Below are positions 5,609-6,894 of a stretch of 58,890 bases of DNA, piece by piece. A model generated the notes under the pieces. It ran no database searches, was not told the origin of the DNA, and saw only the letters and a list, made by a program, of their open reading frames with translations. The stretch is taken from IMG/VR virus record IMGVR_UViG_2526164617_000008, one strand, 5' to 3'. Position 1 is the stretch's first letter. Each line of letters begins with the position of its first letter. The stretch comes from a virus (lineage: Duplodnaviria > Heunggongvirae > Uroviricota > Caudoviricetes). The translations under genes and the position numbers were made by a program.

Positions 5609-6894
5609 CCAGCCAGACCCGGCATGATTACTGCCCCCAGTCGTCCATGATCCGGGGGGTGATGTCACCGGGTCTGGTGGGGCGCTGGTAACCGCTAATA
5701 GGGGTCAGGTCAGGCACTTTTGCCGGGACCGTCTGTAACGTGGATGCCGGTACCTGCTCCCCGTGGTTATCTGGTTAACCCATATACAAGGGAGACAGAA
5801 TGACCGAATCCAGCGATTACGAATCCGTCCAGGTCTTTATCGGCGTTGATGTCGGTAAAGATACGCATCACGCTGTTGCCATTAATCGTTCAGGTAAACG
5901 CCTGTTCGATAAAGCATTACCCAACGACGAAAACAAACTCAGGTCGCTAATATCTGACCTGAAACAACATGGTCAGATACTGCTGGTTGTTGATCAGCCA
6001 GCTACCATCGGTGCGTTACCTGTCGCCGTTGCCCGCTCAGAAGGAGTCCTTGTCGGATACCTCCCTGGACTGGCCATGCGCCGCATAGCCGACTTACACG
6101 CCGGTGAAGCTAAAACTGATGCTCGTGACGCTGCCATCATTGCCGAAGCTGCCCGTACCCTGCCTCACGCGCTACGCACGCTGAAACTGGCTGACGAGCA
6201 AATCGCCGAACTCTCCATGCTCTGCGGCTTCGATGATGATCTTGCCGCACAGACAACGCAGGCCAGCAACCGTATCCGCGGCCTTCTGACCCAGATACAT
6301 CCGGCACTGGAGCGCGTTCTCGGTCCGAGACTTGAGCACCCGGCGGTACTCGATCTTCTCCAGCGATATCCCTCACCAGAAAAACTCGCTTCGCTGGGCT
6401 TCGCTGGGTGAGAAGAAGCTGGCAGCCCAGCTCTGCAAACTTGCGCCTCGTCTGGGTAAACGCCTTGCAGCAGACATAGCTCAGGCACTGGCCGAACAAA
6501 CCGTCGTCGTTCCCGGCACGAATGCCGCTGCCGTAGTACTGCCACGTCTGGCACTCCAGCTCATCACGCTGCGTAAGCAAAGAGACGAGGTGGCGCTTGA
6601 GGTAGAACAGCGAGTTCTTGCTCACCCTCTTTACCCGGTCCTGACCAGTATGCCCGGAGTCGGTGTCAGGACCGCAGCCAGACTCCTCACCGAGGTCGCC
6701 TGCCGCGCCTTCGCCTCTGCCGCACATCTCGCTGCTTATGCTGGCCTTGCGCCGGTAACTCGGCGATCCGGCTCGTCAATACGCGGTGAGCATCCCTCGC
6801 GACGGGGTAATAAAGCTCTCAAACGGGCGTTGTTCCTGTCGGCCTTCGCCGCGCTCAGGGATCCGCTCTCCAGGGCTTACTACACCCGCAAAAT
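5609..6894 (+). mobile_element. IS110-family insertion sequence remnant (GC-rich structured leader plus transposase), 3' end cut by IS1
   Basis: DEDD/RuvC-like N-terminus (VFIGVDVGKDTHHAV) and IS110-type C-terminal domain; left boundary approximate. Confidence 0.6.
5800..6894 (+). pseudogene. IS110-family transposase, frameshifted by a 10-bp tandem duplication and truncated by IS1
   Basis: gcttcgctgg occurs twice in tandem at 6389-6408; removing one copy restores ...KLASLGEKKLAAQ...; reading frame runs into IS1 at 6895. Confidence 0.7.

What the first reader, a model, noticed from the sequence alone, without database searches (positions are those of the whole stretch)
5609..6894. IS110-family element inactivated twice: 10-bp tandem duplication and truncation by IS1
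gcttcgctgg is duplicated in tandem at 6389-6408, shifting the frame; removing one copy restores a continuous transposase. The reading frame then runs straight into IS1 at 6895. The GC-rich, stem-loop-rich 190 bp upstream of the ORF is where IS110/IS621-type elements encode their guide (bridge) RNA, so an RNA may persist although the recombinase is dead.
Basis: partly seen in the sequence, partly recalled or inferred. Interest (0 to 1): 0.5.

Follow-up and report, generated by a model that had tools for sequence, protein, structure and literature searches.

The report
Dead ISEc20 copy, intact guide-RNA gene
This is an ordinary, irreversibly dead copy of the known insertion sequence ISEc20 in a Shigella sonnei-type chromosome. 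It still carries an undamaged gene for the guide ("bridge") RNA, and its 10-bp frameshift is an allele shared by many ISEc20 copies in S. sonnei, not a private lesion.

Summary
Window 5572-6898 is ISEc20 (IS110 family), identical to intact copies except for a 10-bp tandem duplication (6388-6407). It lacks its last 133 bp.

- **IS1 did not insert into it.** In S. sonnei 53G the same copy, between fadL and yfdF, is complete. The same IS1 lies 82 bp downstream with a 9-bp target duplication. The window has a secondary deletion of about 217 bp, joined at an imperfect 6-bp microhomology.
- **The duplication is not private.** It is absent from 5,426 complete E. coli genomes. It occurs at 6 or more chromosomal sites and 2 plasmid sites in S. 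sonnei 53G. At least two of the same insertion sites exist with and without it within S. sonnei. This points to gene conversion or reversion.
- **The leader is a bridge-RNA gene.** Thirty relatives show two stem-loop modules with compensatory changes. The loops covary with the flanking target (a C-run) and with the element's own ends.
- **Expression is doubtful.** The natural promoter needs the deleted right end, so the RNA gene persists but is probably poorly transcribed.

ISEc20 and its predicted leader RNA are already catalogued, so interest is low to moderate.

The parts
5457..5571 (.). Host fadL-yfdF intergenic DNA left of the element. It ends in the target left arm GGATACT-CCC (5562-5571).
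   Evidence: Collinear with E. coli K-12, M217 and S. sonnei 53G. The empty K-12 site reads ACT-C9-TGG.
5572..6898 (+). ISEc20 remnant: left end through codon 363 of the recombinase, including the 10-bp duplication. The last 133 bp are missing.
   Evidence: No mismatch to intact ISEc20 of pSS_046 apart from the duplication. RefSeq names this protein 'IS110-like element ISEc20 family transposase'.
5575..5580 (+). TACTTT, the candidate -10 box of the circle-junction promoter. Its -35 partner (TTGACA in the right end) is deleted here.
   Evidence: CTTGAC is invariant 14-15 nt from the right end in every relative whose right end was recovered. With a 1-nt core the spacing is 17 bp (inference). A promoter across the junction is described for IS110 elements (PMC11208160).
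5587..5603 (+). 5' hairpin of the leader RNA (ACCCC-TTATAAT-GGGGT).
   Evidence: The stem changes in a compensatory way in relatives: CCCC/GGGG, CTCGA/TCGAG, CTTGA/TCAAG.
5613..5677 (+). Target-binding module. Basal stem 5613-5622 pairs with 5668-5677. Left target guide UACUGCCCCC is at 5629-5638. Right target guide GGGGGG is at 5654-5659, followed by UG at 5660-5661.
   Evidence: In the stem 6 of 15 pairs show double changes and 98% of cells are paired. The guides covary with the flanks in L075, L061, L097, L046 and L055. Permutation test for the right side: 0 of 2000.
5679..5762 (+). Donor-binding module. Basal stem 5679-5693 pairs with 5749-5762. Left donor guide AAUAGGGG(U)CA is at 5697-5707. 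Apical hairpin is at 5708-5730. Right donor guide GUAACGUG is at 5735-5742.
   Evidence: In the basal stem 8 of 11 pairs show double changes. The left donor guide equals the right-end terminus AATAGGGGCA and covaries with it (GGGAC, GAGGC, GGAGC variants). The right donor guide is the reverse complement of CA+CGTTAC.
5800..6411 (+). ORF1, 203 aa: the DEDD/RuvC-like domain, ending at a TGA created by the frameshift.
   Evidence: PF01548, E = 2e-49, residues 14-168. The exact sequence is on 135 contigs, all named S. sonnei.
6388..6407 (+). 10-bp tandem duplication GCTTCGCTGG x2 (a +1 frameshift at codon 197-200).
   Evidence: It is absent from 5,426 E. coli genomes. It is present in 6 S. sonnei plasmids at 10 places.
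6398..6898 (+). The second frame, which encodes recombinase residues 197-363 (Tnp domain with the SGSS serine motif). The open frame continues to 6976 inside IS1.
   Evidence: PF02371, E = 5e-22. It is 100% identical to the intact protein. It aligns with the IS621 recombinase 8WT6, E = 1e-14.
6897..6902 (.). Deletion joint GTAAGG, a mosaic of ISEc20 GTCAGG and the IS1 end GTAATG.
   Evidence: Both alignments overlap here. The four other IS1 copies in the window all read GGTAATGACTCC.
6897..7662 (-). IS1 with insA and insB on the minus strand. Its outer G is lost and position 6 of the right inverted repeat is T>G.
   Evidence: PF03400, PF03811 and PF12759. About 99.9% identical to the IS1 at the same place in 53G.
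7663..7671 (.). CATTAGGTA, the surviving copy of the 9-bp IS1 target duplication. The other copy was removed by the deletion.
   Evidence: 53G has CATTAGGTA on both sides of this IS1.

Best explanation
Window 5572-6898 is a defunct copy of ISEc20, an IS110-group insertion sequence, sitting in a C-run between fadL and yfdF. An intact ISEc20 is about 1,450 bp. It has a 228-nt left end encoding a bridge RNA, a 398-aa DEDD/Tnp recombinase gene and a 25-nt right end. By analogy with IS621, the element excises as a circle. The junction ...AATAGGGGCA-C-GTTAC... then places a right-end -35 box (TTGACA) 17 bp from a left-end -10 box (TACTTT). That promoter transcribes the bridge RNA and the recombinase gene. 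One RNA loop (UACUGCCCCC / GGGGGG) reads a C-run target. The other loop (AAUAGGGG.CA / GUAACGUG) reads the element's own joined ends. This copy suffered two things. First, it carries a 10-bp tandem duplication that splits the recombinase after residue 200. That allele is confined to S. sonnei. It is shared by many ISEc20 copies there and is polymorphic at orthologous sites. It most likely reached this copy, or left others, through gene conversion between copies or precise loss of one repeat unit. Second, a strain-specific deletion of about 217 bp joined the element to a pre-existing IS1 at an imperfect microhomology. That deletion removed the last 35 codons, the right end (donor arm and -35 box), 82 bp of host DNA and the terminal base of IS1. 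Shown here: the identity of the element, both lesions, the order of events relative to 53G, the RNA structure and the guide covariation. Inferred: the circle junction, the promoter, and the mechanisms that spread the duplication. Consequences: this copy cannot excise, cannot make recombinase, and probably transcribes its intact bridge-RNA gene only weakly or by read-through.
For: Identity and lesions. Order of events: 53G locus L010 has the full-length copy plus IS1 with its target duplication, and the joint is a mosaic. Spread of the duplication: 0 hits in E. coli; 10 places in 6 S. sonnei plasmids; 6 or more chromosomal sites in 53G, all full length and otherwise identical to the intact copy; 135 contigs, all named S. 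sonnei. Polymorphism at orthologous sites has four examples. The plasmid IS21 site is duplicated in 53G and intact in Ss046. The focB site is duplicated in 53G and intact in CP179952.1, with 0 mismatches over 4.2 kb. The ospE2 site is duplicated in Ss046 and intact in S. dysenteriae. The fadL site is intact in E. coli CP065611.1. Bridge RNA: 96.4% of cells paired, 16 of 29 pairs with double changes, 0 of 500 shuffles, and slid controls of 5-11 cells against 76 observed. Guide-to-flank and guide-to-end covariation. Durrant et al. list ISSfl4/ISEc20 as IS110 group with a bridge RNA predicted in the left end. The recombinase is homologous to the solved IS621 recombinase.
Against: No expression data exist, so the junction promoter and transcript ends are inferred from sequence only. 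The -10 box is weak (3 of 6 matches). Three S. sonnei insertion sites (focB, umuC, stpA-alaE) have flanking C-tracts that the simple target-plus-core model does not predict from unoccupied E. coli alleles. The left-guide permutation test is only modest (about 0.03). Copies of a 1.46-kb repeat in older short-read-finished genomes such as 53G could have been filled with a consensus. However, independent 4.8-Mb-contig assemblies also show the duplication at several sites.
Confidence: 0.85

Rival explanations
1. One reading: the 10-bp duplication is a private, terminal mutation of this one copy, and IS1 then inserted into it.
For: The duplication shifts the frame, and IS1 abuts the element.
Against: The same duplication is found at 8 or more other loci. 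In 53G the same copy is complete next to the same IS1, which has its own target duplication. No ISEc20 sequence follows IS1 in the window.
Confidence: 0.03
2. The duplicated allele spread by transposition. A duplication-bearing, non-autonomous master copy was mobilised in trans by recombinase from an intact copy (for example the IS21-adjacent copy on the virulence plasmid). The window copy either descends from that master or is the master.
For: Every 53G copy found by looking up the duplication-truncated ORF is full length, with intact ends and guide RNA, and identical outside the duplication. Most S. sonnei virulence plasmids keep an intact recombinase gene. A diffusible RNA-protein complex should act in trans (inference).
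Against: Nine ISEc20 sites were already present in the S. sonnei common ancestor (Hawkey 2020, S6 Table). The focB and IS21 insertions exist in both allelic states within S. sonnei. An immobile 5'-truncated plasmid copy also carries the duplication. So allele exchange at fixed sites must have occurred anyway.
Confidence: 0.25
3. Duplicated copies are not dead. A +1 ribosomal frameshift at GGG_UGA (6406-6411, giving GGU GAG) would produce a full-length recombinase with a 3-aa insertion (FAG). Alternatively, the two half-proteins might assemble.
For: The ORF1 stop lies exactly where a +1 slip re-enters the correct frame. The insertion would fall in the linker between the two Pfam domains.
Against: There is no Shine-Dalgarno-like stimulator of the prfB type and no conservation to test. 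The allele is young, with zero other substitutions. It is irrelevant for the window copy, which lacks the C-terminus and right end.
Confidence: 0.05
4. The structured leader is only a 5' UTR that regulates recombinase translation or stability. It is not a guide RNA.
For: It lies directly upstream of the ORF. Rfam 15 has no matching family.
Against: Loop sequences change together with the flanking target and with the element termini in independent relatives. A UTR model does not predict this. The architecture matches the IS621 bridge RNA, and the family was already scored as bridge-RNA-encoding.
Confidence: 0.04
5. The 217-bp loss is a classical IS1 transposase-mediated adjacent deletion.
For: It starts at an IS1 end. 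IS1 is known to make adjacent deletions (general knowledge).
Against: Transposase-mediated deletions keep the IS end intact. Here the terminal G is missing and position 6 carries the ISEc20 base, giving a mosaic across the microhomology GT[C/A]A[G/T]G.
Confidence: 0.15

Closest known systems
ISEc20 / ISSfl4 (ISfinder entries, IS110 family, IS110 group)
   Same: The nucleotide sequence is identical to annotated ISEc20 copies apart from the duplication. ISSfl4 is about 96% identical. Durrant et al. cluster the two together and predict a bridge RNA in the left end.
   Different: This copy is frameshifted and truncated at the 3' end.
IS621 and its bridge RNA (Durrant 2024, PMC11208160; Hiraizumi 2024, PMC11208158; PDB 8WT6)
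   Same: Both have a DEDD plus Tnp recombinase, a long left end, a 5' hairpin followed by two stem-loops with internal guide loops, guides that overlap at the crossover, and a promoter split across the circle junction. The UG that follows the right target guide pairs with the donor's CA, like the IS621 handshake guide.
   Different: Sequence similarity is detectable only in the C-terminal domain (E = 1e-14). The target is a C-run rather than a REP element. Only one shared nucleotide (C) can be inferred at the crossover, against the CT dinucleotide of IS621. The left donor guide stops short of the crossover.
ISBma3 (Burkholderia) and its actinobacterial relatives
   Same: Recombinase identity is 68-82%. 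The leader motifs and the C-run flanks are the same.
   Different: The hosts differ. A few relatives have re-targeted guides (L075, L061, L097).
IS1-associated deletions in Shigella genome decay
   Same: The deletion abuts an IS1 in an IS-rich Shigella chromosome.
   Different: The joint is a microhomology mosaic that damages the IS1 end.

Membership tests
IS110 family (IS110 group) | [quoted passage not shown] | tested here: met
   ORF1 residues 14-168, E = 2e-49.
IS110 family (IS110 group) | C-terminal Tnp domain (PF02371) with a conserved serine motif | tested here: met
   PF02371, E = 5e-22 in the second frame. RRSGSSIRG aligns with the IS621 sequence ESGSSVRG. The last 35 residues are missing in the window.
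IS110 family (IS110 group) | No terminal inverted repeats; no target duplication, or only the short shared core | tested here: met
   The ends are CGTTAC... and ...GGGGCA. K-12 C9 becomes C4 + C6 in M217, a gain of 1 nt.
IS110 family (IS110 group) | The left non-coding end is much longer than the right (the IS110 group rather than the IS1111 group) | tested here: met
   In intact L002 the left end is 228 nt and the right end 25 nt.
Bridge-RNA-guided recombinase system | A conserved leader RNA with a 5' hairpin and two stem-loops that carry internal loops | tested here: met
   30 sequences at 64-78% identity, 16 of 29 pairs with compensatory changes, 0 of 500 shuffles, and clean slid controls.
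Bridge-RNA-guided recombinase system | The first loop is complementary to, and covaries with, the flanking target | tested here: met
   Examples are L075, L061, L097, L046 and L055. Permutation gives 0 of 2000 on the right and about 0.03 on the left.
Bridge-RNA-guided recombinase system | The second loop matches the element's own ends | tested here: met
   The left donor guide equals the right-end terminus and covaries with it in three variant classes. The right donor guide is the reverse complement of CA+CGTTAC, which is invariant.
Bridge-RNA-guided recombinase system | The RNA is transcribed from a promoter rebuilt at the circle junction and binds the recombinase | not testable with these tools
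   Only sequence evidence exists: an invariant CTTGAC in the right end and TACTTT/TACTAT in the left end, 17-18 bp apart if the core is 1 nt. The window copy lacks the right end.
IS1 family | InsA and InsB' ORFs, about 768 bp, terminal inverted repeats, 9-bp target duplication | tested here: met
   The domains are present. The left inverted repeat is intact. The right one lacks G1 and has T6G. Both copies of the target duplication are present in 53G, one in the window.

The most novel reading that the evidence does not exclude
The 10-bp tandem duplication acts as a reversible off-switch for the ISEc20 recombinase. It would be lost by slippage and exchanged among copies by gene conversion. S. 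sonnei lineages would then flip the whole ISEc20 population between autonomous and silent states, while every copy keeps a working bridge-RNA gene. Recombinase from a single intact or reverted copy, for example on the virulence plasmid, could then mobilise all of them in trans.
Probability: 0.15. Interest if true: 0.5.

Novelty: already known. Interest (0 to 1): 0.27.

Why it matters
For the window itself it matters little. This is one more decayed insertion sequence in an IS-riddled Shigella chromosome, belonging to a catalogued element whose leader RNA had already been predicted.

Three by-products may be useful.

- There is now a concrete guide map for the ISEc20/ISBma3 subgroup: a C-run target, donor arms AATAGGGGCA and CGTTAC, and a single shared C at the crossover. 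This could be tested directly.
- One frameshift allele is present in many copies and is polymorphic at fixed sites. That makes it a clean natural marker for gene conversion or reversion among IS copies in S. sonnei.
- A truncation that looks like an IS insertion can in fact be a later deletion.

Tried and rejected
- **Rfam 15 search of 5300-7000 at E <= 10.** It returned only chance hits such as miRNA and snoRNA families, with no bridge-RNA family. I therefore used my own alignment and covariation counts.
- **Look-ups of the two possible ISEc20::IS1 fusion ORFs.** Neither is on record. The junction could not be traced to other assemblies, and the source strain of the window remains unidentified beyond 'S. 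sonnei-like'.
- **Searches for both junctions in the plasmid collection.** The window is chromosomal, not from the virulence plasmid.
- **My early assumption that ISEc20 at fadL-yfdF is widespread in E. coli.** Only 85 of 5,426 genomes have it there.
- **A 2-nt core (CC or CA) and several registers.** None fitted all junctions. A 1-nt core fits fadL-yfdF and relatives L075, L061, L097 and L046, but not focB, umuC or stpA-alaE when judged against E. coli empty sites. This is left unexplained.
- **The internal TATAAT (5593-5598) as a promoter.** It is the loop of a covarying hairpin and has no -35 box.
- **The consensus promoter scan.** It found nothing on the plus strand in 5400-5900.
- **The 401-aa S. 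sonnei protein (P0006) with a compensating frameshift.** It is a single record and may be a homopolymer error from long-read sequencing.

Full report
**What is there.** Positions 5569-6898 match ISEc20, an IS110-family insertion sequence annotated in hundreds of E. coli and Shigella records. The intact reference used here is the copy on S. sonnei Ss046 plasmid pSS_046 (L002, 398-aa recombinase WP_000140459.1). Over 5569-6898 the window differs from it only by ten extra bases. Tandem Repeats Finder places the array at 6388-6408: period 10, 2.1 copies, 100% match.
- ORF1 (5800-6411, 203 aa) carries the DEDD/RuvC-like domain PF01548.
- The frame entered after the duplication carries the Tnp domain PF02371.
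- Each is 100% identical to its part of the intact protein.
- The coding sequence ends after residue 363 of 398, and the open frame runs on into IS1 to 6976.
- The lost 35 residues are almost all invariant among relatives. They align with a structured part of the solved IS621 recombinase.

The left boundary needs correcting: the element begins at 5572 (CGTTAC), not 5609, so the leader is 228 nt.

**The truncation is a deletion, not an IS1 insertion.** The window copy sits in the fadL-yfdF intergenic region. The S. sonnei 53G chromosome has ISEc20 at the same place (L010).
- In 53G the element is complete.
- In 53G the same IS1 lies 82 bp beyond its right end and is flanked by a 9-bp target duplication, CATTAGGTA.
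- In the window about 217 bp are missing between ISEc20 position 1,317 and IS1. The missing stretch holds the last 133 bp of the element, 82 bp of host DNA and one copy of the target duplication.
- The joint, GAGTAAGGACTCC, is a mosaic of ISEc20 GAGTCAGG and the IS1 end GGTAATGAC. The four other IS1 copies in the window all read GGTAATGACTCC.

I read this as a deletion mediated by microhomology, with patchy repair across GT[C/A]A[G/T]G. It also removed the terminal base of IS1. Neither possible fusion ORF is on record elsewhere, so the deletion appears to be specific to this strain.

**The duplication is a shared allele.**
- A 40-mer spanning the duplication junction finds nothing in 5,426 complete E. 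coli genomes. About 1,120 of those genomes carry a near-full ISEc20.
- In the plasmid collection it occurs only in six S. sonnei virulence plasmids, at ten places.
- The exact 203-aa truncated ORF is encoded at six or more different chromosomal sites in 53G: near rtcB2, pac, umuC, focB, stpA-alaE and IS21, plus fadL-yfdF. It also appears in independent 4.8-Mb-contig assemblies.
- In all it is on 135 contigs, and every named one is S. sonnei.
- These copies are full length (1,459 bp) and otherwise identical to the intact plasmid copy.

Orthologous insertions exist in both states.

| Site | With the duplication | Intact |
|---|---|---|
| Plasmid IS21-adjacent | 53G | Ss046 and most other S. sonnei plasmids |
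| focB | 53G | chromosome CP179952.1 (0 mismatches over 4.2 kb apart from the ten bases) |
| ospE2-adjacent plasmid copy | Ss046 (5'-truncated, immobile) | S. dysenteriae (full length) |
| fadL-yfdF | window and 53G | E. coli CP065611.1 |

Hawkey et al. inferred that nine ISEc20 sites were already present in the S. sonnei common ancestor.

Taken together, the allele has moved among pre-existing copies by gene conversion, or has been lost from some by precise collapse of the repeat. Transposition of a duplicated, trans-mobilised copy may have contributed, but it cannot be the whole story. One caveat applies: the 53G reference is an older finished assembly in which repeats could have been filled with a consensus. 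The long-contig assemblies argue against a pure artefact.

**The leader encodes a bridge RNA.** Rfam 15 has no matching family. I fetched 80 loci encoding relatives of the recombinase, at 68-82% amino-acid identity, from Burkholderiales and Actinomycetota. ISBma3 is the named relative. I aligned 30 non-redundant left ends that are 64-78% identical to the window.
- The basal stems of two modules and one apical stem comprise 29 pairs.
- 96.4% of cells are paired.
- 16 pairs show changes on both sides, amounting to 76 cells.
- 0 of 500 shuffles reach these values.
- Sliding the partners by 1-3 columns drops the double changes to 5-11 cells.

In window coordinates the RNA has three elements.
- A 5' hairpin at 5587-5603.
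- A first module at 5613-5677, whose internal loop carries UACUGCCCCC (5629-5638) and GGGGGG-UG (5654-5661).
- A second module at 5679-5762, whose loop carries AAUAGGGG(U)CA (5697-5707) and GUAACGUG (5735-5742).

The first loop matches the flanks. Nearly all copies lie between ...CCCC and CCCCCC.... Relatives whose loops differ have correspondingly different flanks.

| Relative | Loop sequence | Flank |
|---|---|---|
| L075 | GACGCUC and UGAGAG | ACGCTC\| and \|CTCTCA |
| L061 | UAUCCC and CACCUUGUG | GATCCC\| and CA\|CAAGGTG |
| L097 | UAGGGCG | \|CGCCCT |
| L046 | GGGGUG | \|CACCCC |
| L055 | UACCCCC | GTACCCC\| |

Permutation tests give 0 of 2000 on the right and about 0.03 on the left.

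The second loop matches the element's own ends. Its 5' side equals the right-end terminus and changes with it (GGGAC, GAGGC and GGAGC variants). Its 3' side is the reverse complement of CA+CGTTAC.

This is the architecture described for IS621. It includes a UG after the right target guide that can pair with the donor's CA, as the IS621 handshake guide does. Durrant et al. already list the ISSfl4/ISEc20 cluster as IS110 group with a bridge RNA predicted in the left end.

**Inferred mechanics.**
- The guides imply a circle junction ...AATAGGGGCA-C-GTTACTTT... and an ideal target of about nine C's preceded by TACTG.
- The fadL-yfdF site is exactly that. K-12 has ACT-C9-TGG. The occupied M217 allele has ACT-C4|element|C6-TGG, a gain of one shared C.
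- With a one-base core, the invariant right-end CTTGAC(A) lies 17 bp from TACTTT at left-end positions 4-9. That would be a sigma-70 promoter existing only in the circle, as reported for IS110 elements.
- In the window the right end is gone. The corresponding -35 position (5552-5557, TGCATT) matches TTGACA at 2 of 6 positions, and the promoter scan finds nothing on the plus strand.
- The bridge-RNA gene is intact, but I expect little transcription from this copy apart from possible read-through.
- Its RNA would in any case duplicate the RNA from the other copies in the genome.

**What remains unexplained.** Three S. sonnei insertion sites carry clean C4-5 and C6 flanks. The unoccupied E. coli alleles at those sites are imperfect.

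| Site | Unoccupied E. coli allele |
|---|---|
| focB | CCCCTCCCCCC |
| umuC | CCCCACCC |
| stpA-alaE | AACACCCC or AACATCCA |

Either the S. sonnei alleles before insertion differed, or C-tracts travel with the element or are homogenised. I could not decide between these.

**Verdict.** Three corrections apply.
- The boundaries are wrong by about 37 bp on the left.
- The truncation is a secondary deletion next to a pre-existing IS1.
- The frameshift is a population-level, possibly reversible allele rather than a private lesion.

The bridge-RNA reading is well supported. The claim that the RNA is still made from this copy is not.

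Noticed in passing
window 4392-5456: This is the right end of a Mu-like transposable prophage. It has com (4392-4637) and mom (4396-5328), and repeated CGGTATC motifs at about 5385-5480. It lies 115 bp upstream of ISEc20. S. sonnei 53G has uninterrupted fadL-side sequence here instead.
   Followed up: partly
window 7712-8780: yfdF, downstream of IS1, is broken into three ORFs of 64, 130 and 111 aa. It is a single 352-aa gene in K-12 and in E. coli CP065611.1.
   Followed up: no
window 6895-6907: The right inverted repeat of this IS1 has lost its terminal G and has T6>G. The four other IS1 copies in the window have the canonical GGTAATGACTCC, so this IS1 is probably immobile from that end.
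   Followed up: yes
L009, L011, L008 compared with L015, L017, L016, L100: At focB, umuC and stpA-alaE the occupied S. sonnei sites have perfect C4-5 and C6 flanks. The unoccupied E. coli alleles have interrupted or shorter C-tracts. A simple insertion model does not explain this.
   Followed up: partly
L108 (CP179952.1) compared with L009 (S. sonnei 53G): These are the same focB insertion, with 4.2 kb identical apart from the 10-bp duplication. The frameshift allele is therefore polymorphic at a fixed chromosomal site within S. sonnei.
   Followed up: yes
L098 (pSS_046 39266-44305) compared with L099 (S. dysenteriae ATCC 12021 plasmid): The ospE2-adjacent ISEc20 on the Ss046 virulence plasmid is 5'-truncated (it starts at element position 320) and carries the duplication. 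The orthologous S. dysenteriae copy is full length and lacks it.
   Followed up: yes
L022-L097: Recombinases 68-82% identical to ISEc20, with near-identical leader motifs and C-run targets, occur in Burkholderiales and in Actinomycetota (Microbacterium, Arthrobacter, Leucobacter). This suggests recent transfer across phyla.
   Followed up: partly
P0006 (S. sonnei, 401 aa): One S. sonnei record encodes a full-length protein in which a second frameshift about 60 nt upstream compensates for the duplication and scrambles 24 residues. It could be a real suppressor or a homopolymer error from long-read sequencing.
   Followed up: no
L020 2700-2740 (E. coli ECMA0423): Here the right end of ISEc20 is followed directly by CGTTACC, which mimics the predicted circle junction GGGGCA-C-GTTAC, instead of by a C-run.
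   Followed up: no
window 13874-14641, 43844-44611, 49321-52195, 55765-56533: There are four further IS1 copies or fragments within 58 kb, one of them apparently split (49321-49551 and 51655-52195). This is typical of IS1 expansion in S. sonnei.
   Followed up: no
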